Positions 7,165 through 57,902 of a stretch of 64,000 nt of DNA are shown in pieces. Position 1 is the first letter of the stretch. The number at the start of each line of letters is the position of its first letter. The DNA is from Yuukianura sp. NJ FZ-2021 (lineage: Eukaryota). The DNA is taken from positions 11,346,001 to 11,410,000 of the forward strand of contig CM102286.1 of NCBI GenBank assembly GCA_046563655.1, read 5' to 3'. The position numbers and the translations under genes were made by a program. Below the pieces are notes generated by a model. It did no database searches. It saw only the letters and a list, made by a program, of their open reading frames with translations, and was not told the DNA's origin.

Positions 7165-8881
7165 TTTAGCACCGTCCTAAATTCAAAATTTGAAAATTTT
7201 GAATTTTAATTTTCGTTAAAAAATAAATGAGAAATAAAAACCACGAGGTTGGAAATGCTGTAATTTCTTCCAGGAATTAAGCTCAACTGGACACAAGGAC
7301 AAGTCACACAATTGCTATTTATGTAAAAGAAGAAAAATGCAGAATTTGAGACGTATATTACAGCTTATGGCATCATCTTCACTACCTTTTAAGTGAACAA
7401 TTTGGATTTGTAAGGTTGTTCTTGATGGGATGATGAGATAATTTCCATGCTATTTCTGCGCAAAAAAAGGTGCAATTCCTTTAGCAATTTTGCAAAGTCG
7501 ATACAAGTGACGTCTAAATCGTGATTCAGTGTTAGTATGTAAGTAATCAAGAGAAGGACTCGAAAGGTGTGTTTTATGAATTATGAGACTGCAAAACAAT
7601 TTGGATCCTGCTGGATGTTCCTGCTGAGGGTCATCCATGAAATTGGAAAGTGTGATTCATTGTTGCAAAACATGATTTCATTGTTGCAGATTATTAATAG
7701 CAATTCATCAGCATATTTGGTATAAAAAATTATACTAAAATGCAAAGTGATTAAAGTGAACCCTGAAATATGCTATCCAAAAAAAATGCTGAATTGAACT
7801 TCACCATTTTAGTTTTTTTTTACTGGAAAACTTTATAGCCATATACCATACTAATCGAATTAATTTGTGCGCCTTTGATGCCAAAGACTCTGTAATTTAT
7901 TATGCAGCACCATATCTTCTCGCTTACCGTGCTAATTTGAAGGCTTAATTAAATGCAAAGTGTTTTTTTTTATTCATTTTTTTTTTTGCTTCTAGGGTTT
8001 GCAATTTATATTATTAAACATACAGAGTATGTTGGTACACCTAACACCATGCATGTCACTTGCAGGTTAAGTTTGTAGCATTCATAGTAGTTTTGCGATT
8101 TTATATTAATTATTTTTTAGATTCAAGTTTGGAAAAAACTTCTGTTATGCTCCTGCCTTACTTCAGAAAGTCTCAAAGTTTTCATGAAATGTTTCGGCGA
8201 CGATGTCAGAATGTGACATACTGAATACGAGAAATTCTGAGGGAGGTGTAAGCCGGCTCAGTTTGTATAGTTCGTGTTCGATGACAAATTCAAATCTCCG
8301 CGACGGGGCTGGGATTTTGCTTGTGGTGACTGACTACTGTTGCCTAGCAGATAACTGTTCCAATGGCGAGTTGGATATTGCATAATGGCGCGAGGCCAGC
8401 AAACCACAGAAACAATTCAAAGCAAACAACTTTTTTCAAACCAGGAGTTATGGCATGACCTTGTTAAAAAAAAACATGCAAAATTTGGATTTAAACAACC
8501 TTGACTGAAGTAAAAAGAAATGTAAAAAAAAAAGATGGGAAAGTCACGTCATCATCATAGATCACCAAAAAGAGAGTTGAACCTAATTTCAGATAAAATA
8601 GTTGAAGATGATACTTGAAACTGATTTCGAAATCGAAGTGGGTTTTCTAATCAGCATTAGCATGAATTTTTCAGTTCACCTAGTTTTCTGAAGTGACAGA
8701 TTCTAGACCCAACCTAAAAATAAGCGAAGTTGAGAAGAACAAAATTCCTAGTCAGTTAACCAAAAGCTTTGCAGTCATCAACAAATTCATTTTCCTACTT
8801 GCTGTCAAGTTTGAAAAAAGAAAAGCGTAGGCCAAAGTTTAAAGTCATATTTAAATACCTAAGAAAATCCTGTAAGTTATT

Positions 8882-11800
8882 ATGGGTTCATCGAATGAAA
8901 ATCACTCAATGCTCTGGAAGATTTTCCAGGAAAATTCAAAAGTCTGGCCTTTAAAAGTGGCGGTGGAAGATGAGCTGCAGCAGCCATACACATACGCTAA
9001 AGTCAAAGAGTTAGCTGAATCGTTTTCTGCTTCGCTCAATCTCGGAGGGACTCGGAATCCTTTCGTAGTTTCACTCCTCCCTCCAGGAATCAAGTACTTC
9101 GTTACCTCCCTTGCTACAATTGCAGCTCACAAAATTGTCGTAGTTCTACACGACACTTACTTAAACACTCAAGTCGAAAAATGCTTGAAGACTCTCGACT
9201 ATCCGACAGTACTCACTACGCAGGAGAAGTGGGACAGCTTGGACATGGCATCTGGACATGACTATCCAAATCTTTATTTCATTACAGAAGATCTCCAATT
9301 GGAAGTTCCTCAAACTCGCATTACGCATGTTCCAAAACGTGAGATCACATCCTTCTAAAGAAAGGACTATTTTTTAAAATTATGTACTTACGATTAACTT
9401 TTCTTTAAATGTCAGATCAAGAATTCACTGTTGCAGAAATTGAAAACGAAGTTCCATTGGAAGGAGTCGGTTATTGCTTGTTCACTTCTGGCTCAACCGG
9501 TACTCCAAAAGCCGTGCTCGTCCGAGAGAGTTCGATTCTCAGTTCCGTCCAGGGTCTCATCGATACCGATCCGTCGGTATTTAATGACTCTATGCGAGGT
9601 CTTTTCGGTCTCTCAACTGGAGTCATCCTCTCCCTGACAGATATTTGGTCCGTGTTCAAAACCGGTGGGACGCTGATTATTCCTCCAAAGGATATCAAAT
9701 TTGACATTGACCGCTACAGATCCTGGCTTACGGCTAGAAGTATCACAGCAGCTACTTTACCATTGCCACTCATGGAGCTCCTTCTCGCAAAAAACGTGGA
9801 TAAAATGACTTCTCTCCGGTGGGTCATTTTTGGTGGCGCGAGAATCAATGCCAACAAAATTCGGATGGAAGGCGCTCATTTTACCGCCTACAATGCGTAT
9901 GGCTCTACAGAAATACTTGTTGCTACTTTACGACCAATTTCAAAAGAAAGTCCTATCACAACGAGTGTGGGGAAACCGATTGGAGGGGTTAAGATATACA
10001 TTGTGGATGACAAGGGTCAAGAGGTCACGAGCCCGGAGGTCACGGGTAACATCTACATAGCCGGCAATGGGTTAATGGCAGGTTACTATGGACAACCGGA
10101 ACTGAACTCCAAAGTTCTTATTCAAAACCCATTTGATTCCACCATGAGTCCAGTATTCAAGTCAGGCGATCGTGGTTACTGGTCCAATACTGGTGACCTC
10201 CATGTCTCGGGTCGAGCGGACGACCAAATCAAAGTACACGGGATTCGTCTTGAGTTGGGGGAAGTTGAGACTGCGCTGTGCAGTTTTCCTGGAGTGTCGC
10301 AAGCTGCAGTCGTTGCAGTTGACACGACTTCAGACGGCGGCAAACAAATTTTTGGATTTTGCACTCTCCGGAGTGGGCAAGAAAAGCCAAAGTCTTCCGC
10401 CGTGGAAAAATTTTTGCTTCAGAATCTTCAGCGGCACGCAATGCCTCGGCTTGTGACATTCCTTGATAAGATGCCAATAAACCCTGCTGGAAAAATTGAC
10501 CGAGTGAAACTAAGAGAAATGTCGGTGATAAGTTGTAATTCGGAAGAAAATGACAATGAACCGATGGGACCTGTTTTGAACCACTGGATTCAAGTTGTTC
10601 GTTCCGTTTGGGCCGAAGTTCTTCATCTCTCGGAAGATCAAATTCAAAGTGGCGACAACTTTTTCTACCTCGGTGGGAACTCCGTTTTGGTTTTCTCTGT
10701 AATGGACAAACTGAAGCAAGTTGAACCCAAAATTCAAGACAAAAATCCATTACTTCTGTTCAAATTTCCTGTTCTGAAAAACTTTGCTGGTGCACTTTCG
10801 GATGATGGAGTCGCCAACATTGAAATTGACTTTAACGCCGAAATAATCATGTAAAGGATCAAAACATCATATAATCCTATTAACGAAGTATAATATTTTT
10901 AAAATGTATGTTAAAGTATATTTTGAATTTCAGAGATTTTTTGCCAAAATCAGTTCCCTCGGCTATTCTAATAACAGGGACGACTGGATTCTTAGGACCA
11001 TTGCTACTTGCGGAAGCACTGAAACAGACCGAAAACGTTGAAATCTTTACAATAATTAGGGCTCGAACTGATGAAGATTCAAGGAAACGACTTCTTGCAA
11101 AGTACAGTGTGCATTTGCCTGGACTGGACCGTGTTCACTGTATAGCTGGGGATTTGACTAAGACTAAATTTGGTTTGAACGATATAACTTATAGTATGTT
11201 GCTGCACAAGGTCAAGGTCATTTTCCATTCTGCTGCGGAAGTCAGCTTCATGAAAACTTACAGCCAACTTCGAGAATCAACAGTCACCATGACCAAGAAT
11301 GTTCTCAAATTTGCAATGGAAGGTAAACTTCTAACCAACATTTCCTTTTTCTACAATTCAAAAGTATTTAATATAGTTTATTATATAATAAACACGTATT
11401 GTATCTATTTTAAATTGGTTGGAATCCAACCACAAGCTAATTCGTTGAATCCCGAAAAATAATGACAATGTTGTTGTGGTTCTCAGGCTACCCGAAGGAA
11501 CTTCACTACATGTCAACTATTGGTGTTTTTGACAGCGTTGAGGACTTGTCGTCTCCTGTTTATATCGCGGCGGAGGATCGAATCCCGAAAGGAGTAAATC
11601 CATCTAAAATGCTCAACGGCTACTTTCAGTCCAAGTGGGTTTCGGAACAACTCGTCTGGAGTGCCGTGGATCATGGCCTCGTCGCTTCCATATACAGAAT
11701 TGGCCAAATTGGAGCACATACAGTTACCAAAGATGTGGATTCGTCGGATGCCCTTGCCGGATTCTTAGTGATTTGTCAAACGATGAAAAAATTCCCTCTG

Positions 11801-12232
11801 GTAACAATCAATCTTCCATTTGTGGATGGCGATGTGGCGGAAACTATATTGCGATTGAGCAGAATCCCGCATGCACGGGATGCCAGTGCAAAAGTGTTCC
11901 ACTTGATAGGGCAAGAGGTGGGACTGGAGGACTTTTTCGACGATGATGTATGCGGCGTCCCACTAAAGGACTGGGAGCTGGAGTTCCTAAACAGCGTTGC
12001 GTCTGCGCCTAAAACTGAAGACGAAGTCAACGCATGGCTCTTTCTCCAAATGATAAAACAAGCAGAGGAGCATCATACATCTTACAAACGCAGAAATTTG
12101 ATGAAAGATATTTCGTTTTCAACTAAGGAAACCCTTAAGGCGGGTGGAAATGGATTTCAAAAAATCCATCCTCGTCTATACGTCCAACTACTGTGTAATG
12201 CGCGTCAAAAGGAAGTTAACATTTCGAAGTAA
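8882..12232 (+). CDS. NRPS-like monomodular adenylation-thiolation-thioester reductase (Lys2/carboxylic acid reductase-like); exons ~8882-9338, 9416-10850, 10934-11322, 11487-12232
   Basis: A-domain FTSGSTGTPKAV, NAYGSTE, FKSGDRG, GRADDQIKVHGIRLELGEVE, PAGKIDR; carrier-domain NFFYLGGNS; reductase ITGTTGFLG, HSAAEVSF, GYFQSKWVSE; three GT-AG introns restore one frame. Confidence 0.92.
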
Positions 12233-13018: not shown

Positions 13019-16000
13019 TCAAAAACTCACATCCAAGTCGTCTGAACTAAACTCCTTTCCAACGGCTGAACGGACTCTACGATTTTTCGATCCAAACATT
13101 TTTCGACGCTGTAGAACGACATATCGGTTGTACTTTACATATTGCTGTGACAAAAATGGAATATAGAAAGCCCTGAAAAATGGATGCGACCTAGCAGAAC
13201 TAATGAAGTCTTGCTCCGAGATTATTTTCCATTCTTCCTTATTAGCTGCGTAATTTGGTTGATTAGGTGTAATTTGATCCTCGTCTATCGAATCCACTAG
13301 GAAGTCACACTCACTTAAGGGCACCTTGAGTCAGAATAGAAAAAAATGTACTAAAATAATACATAAATATAATAACTCTAGAGTTCTATTAATTGTTCAT
13401 TACATATCGTGTTGGTTCTTCTGTGTTAAGGTCGTTCATGTGATCTGGCAATCTCATGGTTCCTTTTGGATCAAATGCAGGATATAAATTAGGAAGTTGG
13501 CCCTTGAAGTCAGACTTGATGAAGCGAGTGTTCCATTTAGTGCTGGGTAGAAAAAAGGAAGAAGGGAAACGATACCACTCCTTTCCATAACAAAGCGTCA
13601 AATCCCTGTCGCCCACTTCAGTTTCAAATTTCTGAAGAGTTCCTTCCCGTTGTAAATTGAAAAACACATCAAAAGGTGCCCGGTACCCTGTTCAGACAAT
13701 CAAAAACTCCGATTATGAAATGAGGTTTTTATGGATCTTCCGTAATTTGTTGGGTTTTAGTTTGATAATTATGGAAAATCGCATGTTAAAGGAATTAGTA
13801 GTCTCTTCCAGCGTTAACAGACAAACATAAAGTTGTGTAACTCACCGTAATGTAATGCGACGATACGAGAACAACCAATCAAATTCGATGTGAAAATTAT
13901 GAGAAATCCAAGGCCACTGAGCCAAGTTTTCACGTCGCGAGCTTTCAACCATTTCCTGAAAGCTACCGGCGATATCGATGATGCATCCGCAACGAAATGG
14001 TATCCTCTTGTTAATATCCTCTGCATGGAATCAATTCCAATCGCCCCACATATAGGAATGAGTGGGAATATTGGGAACATAAATCGCTCTTCCTAGAATC
14101 ATAGCAATAGCAATATAATCCATGTTAACAAAAATGAAACCCACGCTTCATAAAACAACTTTTAGTATCTGAATAGTGAGTGTTCAATTTAGACAATTGT
14201 GCACAACTTTTACGTTTTACCTTATGAGGTTGAAGTATAAAAACAGTAAGCCAGACGAAGGTTGTTCCAATAATTAAGAATTTTTTCCTCAGAACGTAAT
14301 GGCTCTTCCAGCTAATCAACAGGAGTAAAGGAGAAGCGAGCGTCATAACAAACGCAATGTTAAAATTGAGAAAGCCGTTAATGATGTAGAATGTCCATGG
14401 CTCCGTTCCGTACAAATCGGGTCCCTTCGAAGACAGAACGTTGTACTTCACAATGTTCCAGGGCGCAATGACCAACTTGTTGTAGTGGGTCGAATCGATG
14501 TAAACTATTGGAATCTGAAAACAAAGGAAGGAGTAATTAACGACCCCAGCAAAACCTAAGCCATTTTGATTTAGCACTTGAACGAGGATTGAATTTGTAT
14601 TCCAATGTACAGGTTGCGATATTATCATAACATGTTTCATCTTTTCAACCAAAAAAATCAGACTGGATACGTTCCTCTCTCCATTTGTATAAAATTCCTT
14701 TGATCAAATTCAAGTTAGTTGTTGCGCGTTAATTTGTTTAATCCTATTGAATAATGGATCTTACTACAGTAGATAGCAAGTGAGGACAACGGGCCCATTT
14801 ATTTTTAGAACAGCCACGGGGGTTAGTCGGCCGCAATATTGGGGAGGGAAAAAACTCACAATGACAAAAAATGTCGTCAACAAAAAAGTCGACAACAAAA
14901 ATGTCGACAAAAAAAGATCGAAAACAAAAATGTCGACAAAAAATGTCGATAACAAAAAAGTCGACAACAAAAAACAAGTAGTGAAATTTTTGTATAGAAA
15001 ATTCTAACATTGACTCTAGCCTAGTGTCTAAGTGCTTGTAACTACTTCTCTACGGCCGCTGGTTCGAATACCAAACGGGTCAACGCTTGTGGTTAAGAAG
15101 TTACAAGTACTTAGATACAAGACTGGGGTCAATGTTATTATTTTTTTATTTATTTTTAGTTAAGGATTGAGTTCTTGGAAAAATATCTTTTCTCAAGAAA
15201 AACGTTTTTTCTTGAAAAGTTCTCAAAATAACATTTCTTTAGAAAAAAACGTTTTTGAAAAATTTCAAAATAGCATTTCAAACGTTGTCCAAGTAGTACT
15301 TAAACAGCGAGTTTTGAGACTAGCAATCATCAGTTCTGAAACCAGTCTCAATCCGCAATCATGACCATGGAGGGGTTTAGACCGTATATGGAAGTTTTAA
15401 CACCATTTAGCGACATGGAAGATGTCATCGCCATCAAGATTGCTGGACACTCAATTCTGCTAGCAGCTGAGGAGCTGCCGACCGTCGTTGAAAAGCTAGT
15501 TAAAGCATACATTGAAGCTGGGAGAATGATGAAGGATCTTCCACACTTTGAAAGAATCATGGCAAGGAACCGCAAGAATGGATTTCTGAAGTTATTCCGC
15601 GTTCTAGATCAACCACCAGCCTCGGAAATTCAAATAATGAAAGAAAAGCTTGATACACCTCTTCTTCCAATCCACTGCATTAAAAACGAGTCGGACCAAG
15701 TGTTTCTTATTCGAAGCGGTGGTCCTCTCACAGTGAACATTAGTGACATTCCTCTTCTGGTGGAGTCGCTTCTAAAGTGTGGCTGCTTTCCAACTTCTTA
15801 TCCGGAACGGAATCTAGACGAGCTTATTCATGAAACAAAACGTGAATTCCTGGAAAAGCTGCGCAAGGAAGGTCTCAACACTTGTGTCAACAAAATTAAG
15901 AAAATGATTGGAAAGCTCGCAGGAACAAAACCAGAAGACAAGAAAATGCATCCATACAAAAGCGAAAATCGTTTCAAAAGCATGTTTCGACAACGCAACT

Positions 16001-19000
16001 GCTGCTGTCCAACAATCGATGATACAATAATGCCGCGTTATAGAAAGCACATAGCGGACGTTACAAAGGACCAACAGGAGAGAATTAACAAACCAAGGAT
16101 TGTATCAGAAGGAGATTTTGGGGACAGACAACTCCAAAACCTCGAAACTTATCGATTAGCGCCATATTCTGCTAAAGTCAAGAGCATGATTATTCACCAT
16201 GGTGTACATGATCATTCCGCTTACGATATTTTCTGTTAACTGAATTTCTGTATAGTTTAGTATGACACTTTTACATTTGAATAAAATCCAGGATTTTAAA
16301 TTTTTTGTTACATTGGGAAACTATTTATTGAACTATTGTAAATTTAAACAAAACTTAAACACAAATTAATAAATCAATGTTGTATAAAACCAAATTATTG
16401 TTGTGCTCAAATTTATTTTCAATTGGGCGGAGGCTTCCACTCTTCCAGAAAAGTGTTATCCACACTAGACTCGCTCTCATTTTCATCTTCTTCTTCACCA
16501 TCACTCAAACTGGGAGTTTCTTCTTCTTCTTCGCTAGTGCTGGAATCCTCCACAATAAGGCTCGCTTCTGTTGGAAAAGGTATCCCCCAATATTTTAAAA
16601 GATGGCTACAGAGTACAAAGTATTCAAGCTGAAACGCTTGAACACCTCATGGCTACAGCGCTGGATTTATCCAGCCCAGTCCTGGGGAAGTCTTTGAGCC
16701 GTGTGAGCCAGCCCTTGGACGCCAGCCCTCGGACGCCAGCCCTCAATTCGCATGAATTTTTAACGTAATATAACAACTTCACTGCATAATACAATGGCCT
16801 CTATACATAATACAATGGCGTCTCTGCATAATACAATGGCCTCTCTGCATAATACAATGGCCTCTCTCCATAATACAATGGCCTCTCTGTATAATACAAT
16901 GGCCTTTCTGTATAATACAATGGCCTCTCTGTATAATACAATGGTCTCTCTGCATAATACAATGGCCTCTCTGCATATTACCATGGCCCAGTTGTATAAT
17001 ACAATAACCTCACTGCATAATACAACATTTTTTGTCAATTTTACATCCAACCACCACCACCACCACCACAACCCCAACGTGCCCACCCATGCAAAAGTAT
17101 AAATAGCGACGTTGGCTTGCTCATCTCTCAGTTTCATTTCAGACGTTGAGCTGTGAAGACGTGAAGATTCTGTTTACTATACATCATGGATACCAGTACA
17201 GCGTGCGATATTTGCTGCAGACAATTCTCACGAAGGGACGCATTGAGACGACACAAGTTAACTTGTCATAGTAGCGTCGCAGTATCGAAAATGCTTCAGG
17301 TATGCATGAATCAGCGGGAAAAATCTACTATGTTTCGACATGTACACTCTGGGAAAAAGTTTGACCCGCATTTGGTTGCACCGTTTACTATGTGCATCAG
17401 TGGAATGACTCAGAGCGGCAAAAGCACCCTTGTAAAGCAAATACTTCTACGACGAAACGAAATTGTCGAGACAAATATTGACAAGCCCTTGGAACGTATC
17501 ATGTATTGTTACACTGAGTTCCAGCCTACGCTGTTTGGAGAATTGAAGACCAAGATTCCAACTATACAATTTCATCGTGGACTTCCTGAAAAATGGCATG
17601 ACGGAACCGACAAGCCGTCAGTCGTCGTCCTTGACGATTTGATGCATGAAGCAGGCAAAAACGGAGAAGTTGGAGCTGCGTTCACAAGGACTTCGCATCA
17701 CCGCAACGTATCACTCATCATTCTTGTGCAAAACTTTTTTCACAGGAATATGAAAGAAATCACGTCAAACTGTCACTACATTGCTCTAATGAAGAATCCG
17801 CGAGACTCTCAATTTGTAGCTTGTCTTGGACGTCAAATGAATGGAGGAAAGAAGAATACAACCATGGAAGAAGCCTACAAGGAATGCATGTTAAAGCAAT
17901 ATGGATATCTATTCATCGATTTAACTCAACGACAAAATGATTTGTTTCGCATTAGAGATAATATATTTCCTGAAAATTGTCGAATCTATGCTAATGAATG
18001 AATGAATAAACACATTACACGATAAAAGTTCTATTTTCAAGTTTTTTATTTTGAAAATTCGGAATCTAACGAATGTACAGTCATAAAGGTGTATAATTCT
18101 ACGAAATTACGCTAGTGAGAAACTCTCCAAGTATTGGTAATGCGACAGCGAGAAGAGCTGGCAGGAACCCACCGTGCTGTATAAGTAGTTTTTTCTTGTC
18201 TTCAATCGATCCTTTAGCTTCTGCAACACGTTTAATCTTATATCGATGCGGTCTCAAGATATTTTTGACGGTGGCCTCAATAGGAATCTTGCCCTGGATT
18301 ACGTCCTGAACACATTTGTGTAACGCAAGAATTTGACCAGGAGACGCTGTGGAGAGAAGTGTCTCGCGTATAATAGGGGAGTGTTGGTTCATCTGGTGGA
18401 GAAATTGATAATGTCGTATGGGACCTGGTGATGGTTTAGCTCCTCCAGTTTGTCTATACTCTTCTTCCCCTTCTTCATCCCTTTCGTCTTCCTCGTTTTC
18501 CTCCTCTTCTTCTACTTCTTCTTCCCCTTCTTCATCCCCCTCGTCTTCCTCGTCATCTTCTTCTTCTTCATTTTCTACATCACTTTCCACGTGCGGGCGA
18601 TTTCTAGAAAGCTTTTTGGGTTCATCTCGACCGAGCAAGCCTCGGTGGCTGATCGGAAGCAGATATTTTGGAATGCCTGTCTGAATCATAAAGTCTACGA
18701 TGACAGGAATCATTTGTCTTGTCAACTTATATCTTCCATCCGCAAGTTTTCGTATTCCCTCCTCGAACTCGCTCCTGGGTATGTTGGCATCACCCAGACT
18801 AACGCTATTGTTCGCAAAGGTTGCTCCATTTGCTACAAAAAATTGTGCTAGCTGTTTTCCAACAGCTGAAAACTGGTCCAGAGTAAACGGTGGAGTTGTC
18901 GGTGCTGCTGTCGGAGTTTCATCTTTCGCTATTTGCGATTCTTTTTTAATTCTCTTGGAAAATGGCATCTCGAGCGCTTCATTCGGCTTTACCACAGTAT

Positions 19001-22000
19001 TTGACCAACCATTCGTTGGATTTTCTGACCAGGTCGTAATTCGGTCATATCTGTCTTCGGTTTTTCTGGCTGACTTTTCCGGTCCACCATCCCATCCGGT
19101 AAAGTGACTTGTAGCCATATCATTCAACCGCCTATCGTTTACAACGTTCACATTGACGTAGCCTTCCCTTTGCTTCCGTTGATTTTCCCAGTTCTGGCGT
19201 AATTCCGTTTGCATCATATGATTCTGAAGTTCGATTGGAATGTTGTTCCCAGAATCTCGCGAATTACGCTCATGAAGCTCCATTGGTCCACGGCTCTGAG
19301 ACATGTTCATTGTATGTTGCTGTAAGTATTGTACGGGTTTAGTATCAAGCAAAAAACCATCATGGATTTGCTTTTCTCCAAAATAACTTTTGCAAGGGCT
19401 GTTTTGCTGAGACTCATATGTCTCAAGCTGATCCAGGAGACTGTTGTAGTCGTCTTGGTGAACAAGAATGTATTTTTGCGCCATGACTGTTAGCCTAACC
19501 GCTCCAGATGGTAAAATCTTCACGTCTTCACAGCTCAACGTCTGAAATGAAACTGAGAGATGAGCAAGCCAACGTCGCTATTTATACTTTTGCATGGGTG
19601 GGCACGTTGGGGTTGTGGTGGTGGTGGTGGTGGTTGGATGTAAAATTGACAAAAAATGTTGTATTATGCAGTGAGGTTATTGTATTATACAACTGGGCCA
19701 TGGTAATATGCAGAGAGGCCATTGTATTATGCAGAGAGACCATTGTATTATACAGAGAGGCCATTGTATTATACAGAAAGGCCATTGTATTATACAGAGA
19801 GGCCATTGTATTATGGAGAGAGGCCATTGTATTATGCAGAGAGGCCATTGTATTATGCAGAGACGCCATTGTATTATGTATAGAGGCCATTGTATTATGC
19901 AGTGAAGTTGTTATATTACGTTAAAAATTCATGCGAATTGAGGGCTGGCGTCCGAGGGCTGGCGTCCAAGGGCTGGCTCACACGGCTCAAAGACTTCCCC
20001 AGGACTGGGCTGGATAAATCCAGCGCTGTAGCCATGAGGTGTTCAAGCGTTTCAGCTTGAATACTTTGTACTCTGTAGCCATCTTTTAAAATATTGGGGG
20101 ATACCTTTTCCAACAGAAGCGAGCCTTATTGTGGAGGATTCCAGCACTAGCGAAGAAGAAGAAGAAACTCCCAGTTTGAGTGATGGTGAAGAAGAAGATG
20201 AAAATGAGAGCGAGTCTAGTGTGGATAACACTTTTCTGGAAGAGTGGAAGCCTCCGCCCAATTGAAAATAAATTTGAGCACAACAATAATTTGGTTTTAT
20301 ACAACATTGATTTATTAATTTGTGTTTAAGTTTTGTTTAAATTTACAATAGTTCAATAAATAGTTTCCCAATGTAACAAAAAATTTAAAATCCTGGATTT
20401 TATTCAAATGTAAAAGTGTCATACTAAACTATACAGAAATTCAGTTAACAGAAAATATCGTAAGCGGAATGATCATGTACACCATGGTGAATAATCATGC
20501 TCTTGACTTTAGCAGAATATGGCGCTAATCGATAAGTTTCGAGGTTTTGGAGTTGTCTGTCCCCAAAATCTCCTTCTGATACAATCCTTGGTTTGTTAAT
20601 TCTCTCCTGTTGGTCCTTTGTAACGTCCGCTATGTGCTTTCTATAACGCGGCATTATTGTATCATCGATTGTTGGACAGCAGCAGTTGCGTTGTCGAAAC
20701 ATGCTTTTGAAACGATTTTCGCTTTTGTATGGATGCATTTTCTTGTCTTCTGGTTTTGTTCCTGCGAGCTTTCCAATCATTTTCTTAATTTTGTTGACAC
20801 AAGTGTTGAGACCTTCCTTGCGCAGCTTTTCCAGGAATTCACGTTTTGTTTCATGAATAAGCTCGTCTAGATTCCGTTCCGGATAAGAAGTTGGAAAGCA
20901 GCCACACTTTAGAAGCGACTCCACCAGAAGAGGAATGTCACTAATGTTCACTGTGAGAGGACCACCGCTTCGAATAAGAAACACTTGGTCCGACTCGTTT
21001 TTAATGCAGTGGATTGGAAGAAGAGGTGTATCAAGCTTTTCTTTCATTATTTGAATTTCCGAGGCTGGTGGTTGATCTAGAACGCGGAATAACTTCAGAA
21101 ATCCATTCTTGCGGTTCCTTGCCATGATTCTTTCAAAGTGTGGAAGATCCTTCATCATTCTCCCAGCTTCAATGTATGCTTTAACTAGCTTTTCAACGAC
21201 GGTCGGCAGCTCCTCAGCTGCTAGCAGAATTGAGTGTCCAGCAATCTTGATGGCGATGACATCTTCCATGTCGCTAAATGGTGTTAAAACTTCCATATAC
21301 GGTCTAAACCCCTCCATGGTCATGATTGCGGATTGAGACTGGTTTCAGAACTGATGATTGCTAGTCTCAAAACTCGCTGTTTAAGTACTACTTGGACAAC
21401 GTTTGAAATGCTATTTTGAAATTTTTCAAAAACGTTTTTTTCTAAAGAAATGTTATTTTGAGAACTTTTCAAGAAAAAACGTTTTTCTTGAGAAAAGATA
21501 TTTTTCCAAGAACTCAATCCTTAACTAAAAATAAATAAAAAAATAATAACATTGACCCCAGTCTTGTATCTAAGTACTTGTAACTTCTTAACCACAAGCG
21601 TTGACCCGTTTGGTATTCGAACCAGCGGCCGTAGAGAAGTAGTTACAAGCACTTAGACACTAGGCTAGAGTCAATGTTAGAATTTTCTATACAAAAATTT
21701 CACTACTTGTTTTTTGTTGTCGACTTTTTTGTTATCGACATTTTTTGTCGACATTTTTGTTTTCGATCTTTTTTTGTCGACATTTTTGTTGTCGACTTTT
21801 TTGTTGACGACATTTTTTGTCATTGTGAGTTTTTTCCCTCCCCAATATTGCGGCCGACTAACCCCCGTGGCTGTTCTAAAAATAAATGGGCCCGTTGTCC
21901 TCACTTGCTATCTACTACTACCCACCTGACAAAGCATTTTGTTCGCGAGATTCGAACAGTTTTGCTTCAAAGAAGCAATGAAACAAATTGTCATTATTAA

Positions 22001-44329: not shown

Positions 44330-45717
44330 TATGAGGGGAGATCGACTGCTTTTCAACACGATTTGCTGCAAACTATTTTTTAAAAACACAAGCAAAAATA
44401 ACTTGCAGAAAATCAAGGTGTCAAAAATTGTTTGTAGAAAATGTTAACATTTAACATTCTCTGCATGCTTTTTTCTTGTAGAAAATCGAGATGTCCAATA
44501 AAACTTGCGGAGAATCGAGATGTTCAAAAAAACTTGCGGAGAATCGAGATGTTCAGAAAAACTTGCGGAGAATCGAGATGTTCAAAAAAACTTGTGGAAA
44601 ATCGAGACGTTCAAAAGCTTGCAGCAAATTGTGATGTAATTTGAGATGCCACATGCGCAGTACGCTCTGAGTAGAGAATAGCAAAACGCAAGGAGTCGTG
44701 CGCCACCAAGTTTTGGTCTGTCGGCTAAATAATTTGAACTCAAATTATCAATGAAGCTCCTCATTGGGATGACCAGTGTTGTTAACTATTCTTTAATTAT
44801 ATTATATAATATATTATTATATAAATATCTAATCGAAACCAAACCTAAAACACTTATATTATAATAACAATATATTATAGCGATAATAATTGTTAAACTT
44901 CATCATAACGCTTATTTGTATAAATAATATATTATAATATGATATAAAATATCATAAATCTAATGATAATAATATTTATATAATAATAGGATTTTGGAAT
45001 GACCAGTTTTGTTCTTTGAAATATTTTTAAGTTATAATAAGAAGTCTCTTCAGAGAAGCCTTTGAATACTTAACTGAGAATACAACTATTATTATTAATA
45101 TCATATTATAAGATATTATTATACAAATACGCCTTTTAATGAAGTATGACAGTTATTATCCCCAAAATACATTGTTGATATTATATAAATGTTTTAGTTT
45201 AGGTTCCGATTAGATTAGATATTAATATAATAATATATTATATGATATAATTGAAGAATGGTTAACAACACTGGTCATCCCAATGAGGAGCTTCATTGAT
45301 AATTTGAGTTCAAATTATTTAGCCGACAGGCCAAAACTTGGTGGCGCACGACTCTTTGCGTGTTGCTATTCTCTGGTAAGAGCGTAATGCGCATGTGGCA
45401 TCTCAAATTACATGACGATTTGCTGCAAGCTTTTGAACGTCTCGATTTTCCACAAGTTTTTTTGAACGTCTCGATTCTCCGCAAGTTTTTTTGAACGTCT
45501 CGATTCTCCGCAAGTTTTTTTGAACGTCTCGATTCTCCGCAAGTTTTATTGGACGTCTCGATTTTCTACAAGGAAAAAGCATGCAGAAAATGTTAAATGT
45601 TAACATTTTCTACAAACAATTTTAAACATCTCGATTTTCTGCAAGTTATTTTTGGTTGTGTTTTTAAAAAAAAGTTTGCAGCAAATCGTGTTGAAAAGCA
45701 GTCGATCTCCCCTCATA
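44330..45717. mobile_element. Foldback-like non-autonomous element (~600-bp imperfect inverted arms, AT-rich centre)
   Basis: TATGAGGGGAGATCGACTGC...GCAGTCGATCTCCCCTCATA; internal ~28-bp tandem repeats (AAACTTGCGGAGAATCGAGA); GTTTTG(TA) on both flanks. Confidence 0.88.
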
Positions 45718-45914
45718 GTTTTGTACCCCGTCCGCTCATCTAGGTTGAAGTAAACTTTGAGTCCGGCCATTACACCGCCCAAATTGCATTGTATTGTACC
45801 CCCCCCCCCCCCCCATTAGAATCCTTGGCGGCAATTTCAAAAAAGCAACAAATCGCCCCCTCTACTGTTGATTTGTTGAGTTGCGCATAGATTTATGAAC
45901 TGTACCCCCCGTCC

Positions 45915-45952
45915 TTTATTAAATAGCGAAAGCTATTTAATAATCTGATTCA

Positions 45953-54150: not shown

Positions 54151-54581
54151 CAACTGGTGGAGAATGTAGGGGAAACGGGGAAGAATACGGGGAAAAGAGT
54201 GAGTACCCACCCCCCACATTCCCCGCCTGGGGGAAAACCATCCATTGGCTTGACCTATTTCGTTATGCGCGGTTTACAACCGGTTTATTAGGTTAGGTTA
54301 GGTAACCTAACCTAACCTAACCGACAATAGAGGGGGCGATTTATTGCTTTTTTGAATTTGCCGCCGTGGATTATAATGTGGGGGTACAATACACTGCAAT
54401 TTGGGGGGTACAATGGCCGGACTCAAAGTTTACTTCAACCCTCATCTGTCCAAAGAAGTTTTTTTTCTAAAGTTTTTCGAAGTTCAGTAAAACAACTGCT
54501 TCCTTCTTCATTTCAATTTGGTGTGTTTTGGTTTCATCTCATAGTCTCTGAACATTGAAGCATTGGTTAAATTATTGGGAG

Positions 54582-55746: not shown

Positions 55747-57902
55747 TTATTGTTGATCAAAGATATTCTTTAAGGCGTTTATAAAATTGACAGAAAATGC
55801 TTCTTCTGAGAATCGATCCAGTGAATCACGTGCTCGTGACTGAATTTTACGTTTTTCATTAGGCGACATTTGGATGATTTGATGTAAGATTTCGGCGTAT
55901 TCCTCTTGCTTCGTGGCAAGAAATCCTGTCCTGGACTCTTCTAGAGTCTCGACGATGTCCATCATCGGTCCGCCAGATTTATGAGCTACCATGATTAGTC
56001 CTGCCGCCATACACTCAACGATCCCTGTGAAACAAATCAAAACGTTAACTATACGTTTACATCCATAACTCGAAAACAATGTGTTCTATTATGAAGAACG
56101 AGTCGAATGTCCAAATTAGTTTAATTAAACTCACCAATTCCGAAATGTTCATTCCACATTGTGTGAATCCCAATCAACCCTTTGCTCATTTCGGATTTTA
56201 GATCCTCAAAGGAAAGATTGAGTTTGAATTCCACGTTATTATCCAGTTGCATTTGAGTTGACATATAACGGAGGTGTGCCACACGACATTTATCTTCAAT
56301 GTTTCTGCAACTCCCAATCAATACAAGTCGAACTTTATCCCACACTTCTGGCTCTACAAGTTTCCGCAGTTCAGTCAATGCCTTCAACTGCAAAAGATGA
56401 TCCTTTTCTGGACGAAATTGAGCGACGGACACAACTTTGATAAGGGAGTCGTCCCTGTTGGAGTCTAGTGGAATCTTCATGAATTGTTCAACATCACATG
56501 GAGGAAACACTTTGTATGTTTTAGAAGGACGATGCCATAAGGCATTGATGTGGCTCTGTGTCCAACTCGAGTTCACCATAACCGCATCGCTGTATTGCCC
56601 GGCCATGGAATACACCCAAGCAAACAGACGATAGTACACGATCTTTAGTGTGGTGAGTAATCTGCTTCGAGCGACCATGAAGTTGTTGTTGTGAGATTCA
56701 ATTCCGCCGGACACGCGTTCAAGCATGTCTGTACTAATGGTTGGGTAGTGTACATATGCAGCGACCTTACATTGTCCAATACGATTGAAGATCGGAAAAG
56801 TGAAGGCATATCCCATAGTGTCGATATAAATATCTAAACAAAAAAGGTAATTATTTGTATTTCGTAAGAACACAGTGCTTTTTTCGCATAAAAAATTAAC
56901 AGATAAAGTTCTAGTAACGTGATGCATGCGATATTTGTGTACTTACCAGGAACAAAATTCGACAGTGCCTCCAACCCTAAGATAAGGGATCCCAAGCTTT
57001 GACAAAGAAGGGTTAGATGTGGATAGTGATGTGCCTCAACCCAACTGCGCTGTTTTAGAAATATGAACTCCACACTGTTCGCCGGAATGTGAATGTTGAA
57101 CCGCGAAGCGACATTGCCTAAGATGGTATCAGATGTAGCGTCGATATCTCCAGTGTAAACCACGTACCGATACCCTGGAAATCTAAATATCCGAATGGTC
57201 AAATTGTAGCTTTGAGCGGCGGTCGAGCCGGTTGTTGGGTTGAAGTAAACTTTGAGGTCCTCCGTTGTACCCCCCAAATTGCATTGTATTGTACCCCCAC
57301 ATTATAATCCGTGGCGGCAAATTCAAAAAAGCAACAAATCGCCCCCTCTATTGTTGGTTAGGTTAGGTTAGGTTAACATAACCTAAGGACGGGGGGTACA
57401 GTTCATAAATCTATGCGCAACTGAACAAATCAACAGTAGAGGGGGCGATTTGTTGTTTTTTTGAATTTGCCGCCACGGATTAAAATGTGGGGGTACAATA
57501 CAATGAAATTTGGGGGGTACAACGGAGGACCTCAAAGTTTACTTCGACCGGTTGATGAAATTATTCATTTGACAGTGAAACCAAAAATGATTTACCTACT
57601 CTGTAAAGTCCTTATTCCACACCAGAGTACACGTTCTCCACCTCCACCAGCGTTGCAATATGGATGAAAGAATGCAACTGAAGTTCGAGGATCTTTTTCC
57701 TTCTGACGACTCTTCCTTCGCTTTGAATTCTGCCAAAAATTTAGCGTTAGATAGCAAAATCACCCATGAAACAATACGAGTAGTTGTGATTCCTACGTAC
57801 AAAGTATTTTTTAACCAGTAGCGTGCCAAGTATAGTCCCAACAATTATTGGTATCCATAATATTAGATAAACCCACAAATTGCTCCCTTCAGAGGACTTC
57901 AT
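55747..57902 (-). CDS. ALG11: Alpha-1,2-mannosyltransferase ALG11
   Basis: [58 protein letters not shown]. Confidence 0.95.
57238..57549. mobile_element. 312-bp MITE (GGTTGAAG family) in an ALG11 intron
   Basis: ~115-bp TIRs; flanks GGTTGTTG / GGTTGATG; internal TTAGG tract. Confidence 0.9.

What the first reader, a model, noticed from the sequence alone, without database searches (positions are those of the whole stretch)
15005..15147. tRNA-like Pol III hairpin gene in the TIR, reminiscent of adenovirus VA RNA
Seen: TTGACTC (15010-15016) can pair with GGGTCAA (15077-15083), enclosing 74 nt. The A-box-like TAGCCTAGTG begins at position 8 and TTCGAAT begins at position 54, which is tRNA spacing. 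No convincing anticodon arm is present. A 3' extension (~15096-15137) is complementary to the first ~40 nt, and 4 of the 6 arm differences are G:U pairs on this strand. A T7 run follows. Known: adenovirus VA RNAs and gammaherpesvirus tRNA-miRNA genes are Pol III structured RNAs that are Dicer substrates or decoys, and Polintons are related to adenoviruses. Inference: a virus-encoded small RNA, present in two copies, that may antagonise or exploit RNAi. I am not aware of one described from Polintons.
Basis: partly seen in the sequence, partly recalled or inferred. Interest (0 to 1): 0.75.

Follow-up and report, generated by a model that had tools for sequence, protein, structure and literature searches.

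The report
Hairpin RNA gene in Polinton-like ends
Each end of a small virus-like jumping element carries what looks like a self-contained gene for a 135-letter hairpin RNA read by RNA polymerase III, a kind of gene known from some animal viruses, though nothing yet shows that the RNA is made.

Summary
Bases 15005-15137 fold into one long hairpin (-67 kcal/mol, z -9.8). It has a near-consensus A box (15017-27) and B box (15061-71) at tRNA spacing, and a T7 run three bases after the stem. An identical copy lies at 21547-21679 on the minus strand.

The two copies sit 237 nt inside the perfect 2402-nt inverted ends of a 7.1-kb element. The element has a 5-bp target duplication and lies in an intron of an Alg9-like gene. 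It encodes an A32-type packaging ATPase whose relatives lie beside rve integrases. I read it as a short, non-autonomous Polinton/Maverick-like element.

The hairpin is not a tRNA, a VA RNA or any Rfam family.

Contigs of four DNA runs from two organisms show the whole end-piece as a multi-copy family. The hairpin is no more abundant than its flanks, and no contig skips it. That argues against an abundant host SINE/MITE dropped in passively.

I found no RNA data and could not retrieve diverged copies, so transcription and covariation are untested.

Best reading, confidence about 0.5: an element-borne type-2 Pol III unit making a short-hairpin-like RNA. It would be a new variant of a known kind.

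The parts
14763..14767 (.). Left copy of the 5-bp target-site duplication ACTAC
   Evidence: Read from the flanks printed. The same 5 bases follow the right end at 21917-21921.
14768..17169 (+). Left terminal inverted repeat (2402 nt) of the 7149-bp element; the end starts AG
   Evidence: pair I1: 100% complementary to 19515-21916.
14867..14974 (+). Subterminal array of 15-nt repeats (AAAAATGTCGACAAC, 7.3 copies) between the element end and the hairpin
15005..15137 (+). Hairpin of the predicted RNA: 55 pairs, 10 of them G:U. The lower stem is 15005-15043 / 15099-15137; the apical part is 15045-15097.
   Evidence: A covariance model of it scores 177.4 bits on this strand and 87.7 bits on the other.
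15017..15027 (+). A-box-like motif TAGCCTAGTGT (positions 8-18 from 15010)
   Evidence: The consensus it is compared with is recalled.
15061..15071 (+). B-box-like motif GGTTCGAATAC (positions 52-62 from 15010), in the apical stem-loop
   Evidence: The consensus it is compared with is recalled.
15141..15147 (+). T7 run, the predicted Pol III terminator, 3 nt after the stem
15180..15279 (+). 45-nt repeats with an AAAACGTTTTT motif, between the hairpin gene and the 292-aa ORF; probably the ORF's promoter region
   Evidence: The adjoining stretch 15246-15286 is similar to the region upstream of the weakly related ORF in L002 (score 34, 0 of 300 shuffles as good; coordinates recomputed from that alignment's 0-based offsets).
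15361..16239 (+). 292-aa ORF inside the inverted repeat (second copy 20445-21323 on the - strand); orphan
   Evidence: No Pfam family. No homologue in two large protein searches. Weak BLASTP match, E 1e-4, to L002:2589-3728(-).
17186..18001 (+). 271-aa C2H2 zinc finger plus A32-type (FtsK/HerA-like) packaging ATPase
   Evidence: Pfam Pox_A32, 25.8 bits against a cut-off of 22.8. 74 homologues, up to 74% identity.
18099..19484 (-). 461-aa ORF with an acidic tract, conserved in related elements
   Evidence: tblastn matches in L001, L002, L003, L009 and L021, with E from 6e-15 to 5e-6.
19515..21916 (-). Right terminal inverted repeat
21547..21679 (-). Second, identical copy of the hairpin. Mirror coordinates: A box 21657-21667, B box 21613-21623, T7 21537-21543.
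21917..21921 (.). Right copy of the target-site duplication ACTAC

Best explanation
The hairpin is a small gene that belongs to the element itself. It is a type-2 (tRNA-style, internal promoter) RNA polymerase III transcription unit, one in each inverted end, and both read inward.

Inferred mechanism:
1. TFIIIC binds the A and B boxes.
2. Pol III starts about where the stem begins, near 15005-15010.
3. Pol III stops in the T7 run.
4. The product is an RNA of about 135-140 nt that folds into a single 55-pair hairpin with a short U-rich 3' tail. This resembles a polymerase-III-driven short-hairpin RNA.

The promoter boxes are probably what remains of a tRNA-derived sequence. The rest of the tRNA has decayed, and the first 39 nt are present again as an inverted copy.

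The hairpin RNA would most likely act on the host's small-RNA machinery, either as a decoy or as a source of small RNAs. This would parallel adenovirus VA RNAs or the Pol III pre-miRNAs of bovine leukemia virus.

Shown: the hairpin, the boxes, their spacing, the terminator, and membership of the multi-copy end-piece in two organisms.
Inferred: transcription, the RNA's ends, and any function.
For: 1. The hairpin is far more stable than shuffles on the + strand (-67 kcal/mol, z -9.84). It is 16 kcal/mol better than the - strand. All 10 G:U pairs favour the + strand, and the covariance model scores 177 against 88 bits.

2. The A and B boxes each match 10 of 11 positions of the recalled consensus, at tRNA positions 8-18 and 52-62. 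The combined pattern is found twice (the two copies) against 0.01 expected in the window, and in 0 of 35 related loci.

3. The stem starts 5 nt before position 1 of the tRNA-like numbering. No T4 lies inside 15005-15140, and a T7 run follows 3 nt after the stem. The predicted transcript is therefore nearly exactly the hairpin.

4. The boxes are kept while the tRNA itself is gone: ARAGORN finds 0, there is no Rfam tRNA match at E<=10, and the 74-nt fold has z -0.64. This is the pattern expected if promoter function, not tRNA function, was retained.

5. The best Rfam look-alike is RUF6-5, at 31.6 bits and E 1.2e-4 for the 251 nt searched. RUF6 is itself a Pol III RNA with A and B boxes (PMC11208047, passages read).

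6. The hairpin is an integral part of the end-piece:
- Summed contig depth jumps at 14757. In X1 the host intron reads about 250-450 and the element 2,000-26,000.
- The hairpin bins (X1 10,014 and 9,616) are no higher than their neighbours (11,182-11,795 before, 8,255-8,328 after). The same holds in X2 and X4; in X3 the bins after the hairpin are as deep but the two before it are shallower (627 and 946 against 1,729 and 1,616).
- None of the 6 listed joints skips the hairpin.
- The tool warns that summed depth is not a copy number.

7. One 794-nt contig (X2 record 9) matches only 15006-15132, with 20 differences. The hairpin therefore exists as a discrete unit where the flanks are not alike at 80%.
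Against: - There is no evidence of transcription. No RNA run was available.
- No diverged copy could be retrieved, so there is no covariation test.
- The copies seen are mostly near-identical, so keeping the boxes may reflect youth rather than selection.
- The G:U bias in the arms alone (4 against 1) is not significant. The six apical G:U pairs were chosen by folding the + strand.
- A T4 run (14997-15000 on the + strand, read as TTTT on the - strand) also follows the hairpin on the other strand.
- T runs are common in this AT-rich end-piece.
- None of the 35 related loci holds a similar hairpin, a tRNA or the box pattern. Most of these are short contigs that do not reach an element end.
- The hairpin-only contig fits a mobile MITE equally well.
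- In all contigs covering 15005 the base is G, not T (16, 17, 9 and 6 contigs in X1-X4). In those copies the outermost pair of the stem would not form.
Confidence: 0.5

Rival explanations
1. Passive relic. A tRNA-derived repeat (SINE head, tRNA pseudogene or foldback MITE) landed in, or was captured by, the end-piece of an ancestral element. It is now copied along with it and has no role for the element. It may or may not still be transcribed.
For: - The unit is a perfect MITE shape: 39-nt inverted arms, 133 bp long. TA (15005-15006) and TA (15136-15137) flank ACATTGAC...GTCAATGT.
- One 794-nt contig shares only 15006-15132 with the stretch.
- Polinton ends commonly hold repeats; here they are at 14867-14974 and 16782-17025.
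- No related locus has the hairpin.
Against: - Hairpin bins are not deeper than the surrounding end-piece in X1, X2 or X4; in X3 they exceed the two bins before the hairpin but not those after it. No contig shows an end-piece without the hairpin.
- There is no further copy in the other 57 kb of the window.
- There is no A-rich or simple-repeat SINE tail. A Pol III terminator follows directly instead.
- The TA/TA is itself part of the palindrome, and other copies read G at 15005, so it is not a clear target duplication.
- Both boxes stay 10 of 11 while the rest of the tRNA is unrecognisable.
Confidence: 0.3
2. A DNA-level element rather than an RNA gene. The B and A boxes would recruit TFIIIC, with or without Pol III, at both ends as a chromatin boundary. 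That boundary would shield the element's Pol II genes or tune the adjacent 292-aa ORF promoter. Alternatively, the palindrome forms a cruciform used in end replication or integration.
For: - The two copies bracket the element symmetrically. Each lies 213 nt upstream of, and in the same direction as, the 292-aa ORF.
- Assembled Pol III complexes are reported to influence neighbouring Pol II transcription (PMC4228148; only the abstract start in the listing was seen).
- Boundary activity of tRNA genes and B-box clusters is recalled knowledge.
- Both strands fold well as a palindrome.
Against: - A boundary needs neither a 55-pair hairpin nor a terminator placed exactly after it.
- A cruciform needs no A/B boxes at tRNA spacing.
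- The stem's imperfections are mostly G:U, which helps RNA and not DNA pairing.
Confidence: 0.12
3. A chance palindrome with chance box-like motifs, or an assembly artefact.
For: The 100% identity of 2402-nt arms could in principle come from assembly.
Against: - 0 of 200 shuffles fold as well.
- The box pattern is expected 0.01 times per window.
- The same sequence is present in independent contigs of 4 runs from 2 studies and 2 organisms.
- The element has a 5-bp target duplication inside an intron of an Alg9-like gene whose exons lie on both sides.
Confidence: 0.03

Closest known systems
Adenovirus VA RNA I/II (recalled knowledge; the Rfam library was searched)
   Same: A virus-borne RNA of about 160 nt, made by Pol III from internal A and B boxes, folding into a long imperfect hairpin and ending in a U run. 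The carrier belongs to the same broad virus realm as Polintons.
   Different: - No sequence or structure match: VA is not among the 4 Rfam matches at E<=10.
- VA genes are internal and single-stranded in orientation, not in the inverted ends.
- VA has a structured central domain. Here there is one simple stem with the B box at the tip.
- Expression is unknown here.
Bovine leukemia virus Pol III pre-miRNA genes (PMC12498455; only the listing and abstract start were seen)
   Same: Hairpin RNAs made directly by Pol III from internal type-2 promoters in an integrated viral genome, independent of Pol II.
   Different: - By recall, the BLV hairpins are short (about 55-60 nt) and clustered.
- This one is a 133-nt hairpin present once per end, in a DNA element of a different realm.
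- No small RNAs have been shown here.
Murine gammaherpesvirus 68 tRNA-miRNA genes (TMERs; recalled)
   Same: tRNA-like A and B boxes drive a viral Pol III transcript that contains a hairpin.
   Different: TMERs are a folded tRNA-like part followed by separate pre-miRNA hairpins. Here the 74-nt tRNA-like part does not fold better than shuffles (z -0.64), and the 3' part has no hairpin of its own (z -0.11). The whole RNA is one hairpin.
Plasmodium RUF6 ncRNA (Rfam RF01581; PMC11208047, passages read)
   Same: The best Rfam look-alike (31.6 bits, E 1.2e-4 for the 251 nt searched). It is a hairpin of about 150 nt with the B box near the tip, an A box in the 5' arm and a U run, and it is transcribed by Pol III.
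   Different: - The score is far below the family's gathering score of 70.
- No shared sequence beyond the boxes, an unrelated organism and an unrelated genomic context. This is an analogue of architecture, not a relative.
tRNA-derived SINEs and foldback MITEs
   Same: A tRNA-derived A/B-box head (SINE), or a short unit with long inverted arms (MITE).
   Different: - No A-rich or simple-repeat tail and no clear target duplication.
- Not more abundant than the surrounding end-piece, and not found elsewhere in the window.

Membership tests
tRNA gene | Cloverleaf with D, anticodon and T arms, recognisable by tRNA finders | tested here: not met
   ARAGORN finds 0 genes in the window. Rfam has no match at gathering score. 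The tRNA model is not among the 4 matches at E<=10 in 14950-15200. The 74-nt fold has z -0.64.
tRNA gene | Internal A and B boxes at about +8 and +52 | tested here: met
   15017-15027 and 15061-15071. The pattern is found 2 times against 0.01 expected. The consensus motifs are recalled.
Adenovirus VA RNA (Rfam) | Match to the family's covariance model | tested here: not met
   cmscan of all 4227 families gives no VA match at gathering score or at E<=10.
Adenovirus VA RNA (Rfam) | Abundant Pol III transcript in infected cells | not testable with these tools
   No RNA run was listed for this sequence.
Plasmodium RUF6 | Score at or above the Rfam gathering score (70 bits) | tested here: not met
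   31.6 bits.
Gammaherpesvirus tRNA-miRNA (TMER) type | A self-folding tRNA-like module followed by separate pre-miRNA stem-loops | tested here: not met
   15010-15083 alone gives z -0.64, and 15084-15140 alone gives z -0.11.
tRNA-derived SINE | A-rich or simple-repeat 3' tail and flanking target duplications | tested here: not met
   The unit ends in a T7 run, and no direct repeat flanks it.
tRNA-derived SINE / MITE | Many dispersed copies independent of the carrier element | tested here: inconclusive
   Hairpin bins are not deeper than their neighbours in X1, X2 and X4; in X3 they exceed the two bins before the hairpin. No joint skips the hairpin. One contig of the 32 listed pieces matches the hairpin alone, and 645 pieces were not shown. 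There is no other copy in the window.
MITE | Terminal inverted repeats with a target-site duplication | tested here: inconclusive
   The 39-nt arms are present. TA/TA at the edges is itself palindromic, and 15005 reads G in all other contigs.
Polinton/Maverick (the carrier element) | Terminal inverted repeats, short target duplication, AG...CT ends (the 6-bp duplication and the ends are recalled from Kapitonov and Jurka 2006, not read here) | tested here: met
   2402-nt inverted repeats. The ends are AG...CT, and the direct repeat ACTAC is 5 bp, not 6.
Polinton/Maverick (the carrier element) | A32/FtsK-type packaging ATPase | tested here: met
   Pfam Pox_A32, 25.8 bits against a cut-off of 22.8. 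The ATPase of relatives L003 and L009 lies beside an rve integrase.
Polinton/Maverick (the carrier element) | Protein-primed DNA polymerase B, rve integrase, capsid proteins and protease in the same element | tested here: not met
   The three long distinct ORFs of the element, each 271 aa or more, were scanned against Pfam. Only the ATPase has a family. The element is therefore a short, presumably non-autonomous derivative.

The most novel reading that the evidence does not exclude
Polinton/Maverick-lineage elements of this host carry their own polymerase-III gene for a short-hairpin-like RNA in each inverted end. It would be a functional counterpart of adenovirus VA RNA. It would be made independently of the element's Pol II genes and would either saturate or feed the host's Dicer/Argonaute pathway, so that the element escapes or tunes silencing. 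This would be the first non-coding RNA gene assigned to this class of virus-like transposons. My searches found none in print: 'Polinton' with 'Pol III' gave 10 papers, none on this by title; 'Polinton' with 'tRNA-like' gave 6, none on this; 'adintovirus' with 'VA RNA' gave 0.
Probability: 0.3. Interest if true: 0.8.

Novelty: new variant of a known kind. Interest (0 to 1): 0.5.

Why it matters
Viruses that persist in animal nuclei have repeatedly evolved small Pol III RNAs to deal with host RNA-sensing and silencing pathways. Examples are adenoviruses, herpesviruses and bovine leukemia virus.

Polintons/Mavericks are the transposon-like relatives of adenoviruses. They are thought of as carrying protein genes only. 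A Pol III hairpin gene built into their inverted ends would show that this strategy also exists in the integrated, transposon-like branch. It would also offer a simple, testable handle on how such elements interact with RNA interference in invertebrate hosts.

If it is only a captured tRNA-derived repeat, it is an ordinary passenger and of little consequence.

Tried and rejected
**Expression.** No RNA holder was listed by the look-up of sequencing runs. This says nothing either way.

**Whole genome.** None is held for this window, so the genomic copies could not be collected.

**Looking for the hairpin elsewhere**
- Exact 30-mer and 18-mer in viral contigs: 0 and 0.
- 22-mer in genome contigs: 0.
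- blastn of the hairpin against the first 34 related loci: only two 13-nt chance matches.
- Covariance model R1 over the window and all 35 loci: only the window's own two copies, plus one E 7.8 hit.
- A/B-box pattern in 35 loci: 0.
- ARAGORN: 0 tRNAs in 35 loci.
- Rfam at gathering score: 0 matches in 14 of the 35 loci, the longer ones.

**Relatives through the ATPase**
- Viral contigs: none, with either the single protein or the alignment.
- Genome contigs: one distant locus, L035, at 41% identity.

**Candidate look-alikes rejected**
- The 140-nt hairpin at L019:1730-1869 is not similar to ours: 426 and 58 of 500 shuffles score as well. It also has internal T runs.
- An A-box-like TAGCTCAGTGT at the end of contig L002 gave no significant alignment to the hairpin.

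**Other**
- A target search with the hairpin arms in the window found only 13-nt matches, E 0.1.
- Earlier-findings look-ups by place, by sequence and with the six-word query returned nothing; the one-word query 'Polinton' returned 31 findings, none on a Pol III or hairpin gene.
- PMC6431247 and PMC2836005 were searched for Polinton target-duplication statements and held none.
- No supplementary files were consulted.
Full report
**1. What is in the sequence**

- From 15005 to 15137 the + strand folds into one long hairpin of 55 pairs, at -67.0 kcal/mol. Shuffles average -30.3 (z -9.84), and 0 of 200 fold as well.
- The opposite strand also folds, as any palindrome must, but less well: -50.6 kcal/mol, z -7.85.
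- The lower stem is 15005-15043 against 15099-15137. It is 39 nt with six differences. Four are G:U on the + strand, one is C.A and one is A.A.
- The apical part, 15045-15097, pairs only with the help of six further G:U pairs.
- A covariance model built from the hairpin scores 177.4 bits on the + strand and 87.7 bits on the - strand.
- The strand bias is real in energy terms. As a test of selection it is weak. Within the arms it is 4 against 1 (6/32 by binomial, my arithmetic). The apical pairs were picked by folding that same strand.

**2. Promoter-like signals**

- Counting from 15010, TAGCCTAGTGT lies at positions 8-18 and GGTTCGAATAC at positions 52-62.
- Each differs at one place from the recalled A-box and B-box consensus of tRNA-type (type 2) Pol III promoters.
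- A pattern joining the two motifs at tRNA spacing occurs twice in the 64-kb window, which are the two copies. Shuffles give 0.01 expected. It occurs in none of 35 related loci.
- No run of four T interrupts 15005-15140, and a T7 run follows three bases after the stem.
- The predicted primary transcript is thus almost exactly the hairpin plus a short U-rich tail.
- Caveats: a T4 run also follows on the other strand, and T runs are frequent in this AT-rich region.

**3. What it is not**

- Not a tRNA. ARAGORN finds none. Rfam gives nothing at gathering scores. At E<=10 the tRNA model is not among the four matches. The 74-nt 'tRNA-like' part alone folds no better than shuffles (z -0.64).
- Not built like the gammaherpesvirus tRNA-miRNA genes. 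The 3' part has no hairpin of its own (z -0.11).
- Not a VA RNA by the Rfam model.
- The best Rfam look-alike is Plasmodium RUF6-5, at 31.6 bits against a gathering score of 70 and E 1.2e-4 for the 251 nt searched. RUF6 is a Pol III RNA with conserved A and B boxes (PMC11208047, passages read). The resemblance is one of architecture: a hairpin with the B box near the tip and a U run. It is not kinship.

**4. The carrier**

- The hairpin lies 237 nt inside a 2402-nt inverted repeat that is 100% complementary: 14768-17169 and 19515-21916. This is why a second identical copy sits at 21547-21679 on the - strand.
- The 7149-bp unit ends in AG...CT and is flanked by the direct repeat ACTAC.
- It lies between two exons of an Alg9-like mannosyltransferase gene on the - strand. 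The rest of the window holds ordinary eukaryotic genes.
- The element has three long distinct ORFs:
  - a 292-aa orphan inside each inverted repeat. It has no Pfam family, no homologue in two large searches, and only a weak E 1e-4 match to an ORF next to the closest ATPase relative;
  - a C2H2 plus A32-type packaging ATPase with 74 homologues at up to 74% identity, mostly on short metagenome contigs;
  - a 461-aa acidic protein with relatives in five related loci.
- In two related loci an rve integrase lies next to the ATPase, as in Polintons/Mavericks.
- The window's element has no polymerase, integrase or capsid gene. I therefore read it as a short, presumably non-autonomous member of that lineage.

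**5. Is the hairpin a host repeat that fell into the end-piece?**

Five DNA runs hold the stretch. They come from two studies and two coded organisms, and no RNA run was listed. I laid the contigs of four of them on 14400-15900 at 80% likeness.

| Region | Summed contig depth, X1 | X3 | X4 |
|---|---|---|---|
| Host intron | about 250-450 | 47.5 (23.3 in the last intron bin) | 5-14 |
| Hairpin bins (15012-15113) | 10,014 and 9,616 | 1,729 and 1,616 | 141 and 206 |
| Bins before the hairpin (14910-15011) | 11,182-11,795 | 627 and 946 | 58 and 90 |
| Bins after (15216-15317) | 8,255-8,328 | 1,830 and 1,246 | 86 and 130 |

- Depth rises 10-100-fold exactly at the element's end. In X1 and X2 the hairpin bins match both neighbours, and in X3 and X4 they exceed the two bins before the hairpin. 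Nowhere do they stand out from the end-piece as a whole.
- The tool warns that summed depth is not a copy number. I use it only for the comparison of neighbouring bins.
- 204, 303, 99 and 58 contigs were laid in X1-X4. Many are 80-95% alike, so the end-piece is a diverged multi-copy family.
- None of the six listed joints skips the hairpin.
- None of the 24 loose ends shown (of 160) lies at its edges.
- One 794-nt contig (X2 record 9) matches only 15006-15132, with 20 differences. This is either a solo copy or a relative whose flanks have diverged beyond 80%.
- In all contigs covering 15005 the base is G, not T, so the outermost pair is peculiar to the window's copy.

Together this makes 'abundant host SINE/MITE dropped in passively' unlikely. 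It does not exclude an old capture.

**6. Relatives elsewhere**

I could not obtain a second, diverged hairpin.
- Exact words of it are absent from the viral and prokaryote-genome collections.
- 34 metagenome loci and one MAG locus that encode ATPase relatives share only the ATPase coding part with the element.
- Those loci hold no match to the hairpin model, no tRNA and no A/B-box pattern. Of these, 14 (the longer ones) were also scanned against Rfam and hold no family.
- Most of these contigs are 1-5 kb and need not reach an element end, so this is a weak negative.
- Covariation, the strongest computational test, therefore remains undone.

**7. Reading**

- Most likely (about 0.5): the unit is a working type-2 Pol III gene that belongs to the element and yields a short-hairpin-like RNA of about 135-140 nt. 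The steps from DNA motif to transcript are inferred. The function, decoy for or source of small RNAs, is inferred by analogy with VA RNAs (recalled) and the Pol III pre-miRNAs of bovine leukemia virus (PMC12498455, listing only).
- Rivals:
  - a passive tRNA-derived relic or MITE, about 0.3;
  - a DNA-level TFIIIC boundary or cruciform, about 0.12;
  - chance or artefact, about 0.03.

**8. Novelty**

- Virus-borne Pol III hairpin RNAs are a known kind.
- I found none described for Polintons/Mavericks/adintoviruses. 'Polinton' with 'Pol III' gave 10 papers, none on this by title or abstract start. 'Polinton' with 'tRNA-like' gave 6, none on this. 'Adintovirus' with 'VA RNA' gave 0. A five-term search on Pol III, MITE, hairpin and the two boxes gave 0.
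- The library lacks most subscription journals, so absence from print is not proven.
- I rate it a new variant of a known kind, with moderate interest that depends on showing the RNA.

Noticed in passing
window 14768-21916: The carrier is a 7.1-kb element with perfect 2402-nt inverted ends, each holding a complete 292-aa orphan ORF. It keeps only a packaging ATPase and one other conserved gene. It may be a 'mini' Polinton-like derivative that depends on full-length relatives. It sits in an intron of an Alg9-like gene.
   Followed up: partly
window 14867-14974 and 16782-17025 (mirrored in the right end): There are two repeat arrays inside each inverted end: 7.3 copies of a 15-nt unit containing GTCGAC near the tip, and 11.6 copies of a 21-nt unit at the inner edge. 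Contigs in two runs skip 112 nt of the first array, so its copy number varies.
   Followed up: no
window 15246-15286 and L002:3732-3773: A palindromic AAAACGTTTTTG...TTCAAAATA motif upstream of the 292-aa ORF recurs upstream of the weakly related ORF in the closest metagenome relative, in the opposite orientation (score 34, 0 of 300 shuffles as good; coordinates recomputed from that alignment's 0-based offsets). It may be a conserved promoter element of this lineage.
   Followed up: partly
L019:1730-1869: A relative whose ATPase fragment is 82% identical carries another strong hairpin of about 140 nt (-74 kcal/mol on one strand, -63.5 on the other). Its sequence is unrelated and it has internal T runs. 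Long hairpins may recur in this lineage, or this may be coincidence.
   Followed up: partly
L002:3790-3868 (contig end): An A-box-like TAGCTCAGTGT followed 10 nt later by TGGTTCACG lies on the strand opposite the 380-aa ORF, right at the contig end. It is too short, and cut off, to judge, and it gave no significant alignment to the hairpin.
   Followed up: partly
window 14496-15011, as seen in run X4: In the second organism a 198-nt contig of the end-piece differs from the window at 1 base. Its best contig for the adjacent host intron differs at 11 of 259. The element is thus more alike between the two organisms than the intron beside it. That could mean recent activity, transfer, or just a fast-evolving intron.
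   Followed up: no
window 14808-14858: This bin near the element tip has 2-3 times the summed contig depth of the rest of the end-piece in all four runs (for example 26,364 in X1). The tip sequence may be shared by more families than the rest.
   Followed up: no
window 44330-45717; 54303-54441, 57237-57549, 45808-45916: There are other inverted-repeat structures in the window. One is a foldback with 520-nt arms, 94% alike. Another is a short repeat family of about 110-140 nt present at three or more places. They are unrelated to the hairpin by blastn.
   Followed up: no
window 8882-12232: Adjacent ORFs with AMP-binding, phosphopantetheine-binding and NAD_binding_4 (reductase) domains form an NRPS-like carboxylate-reductase architecture in an otherwise eukaryote-looking gene neighbourhood.
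   Followed up: no
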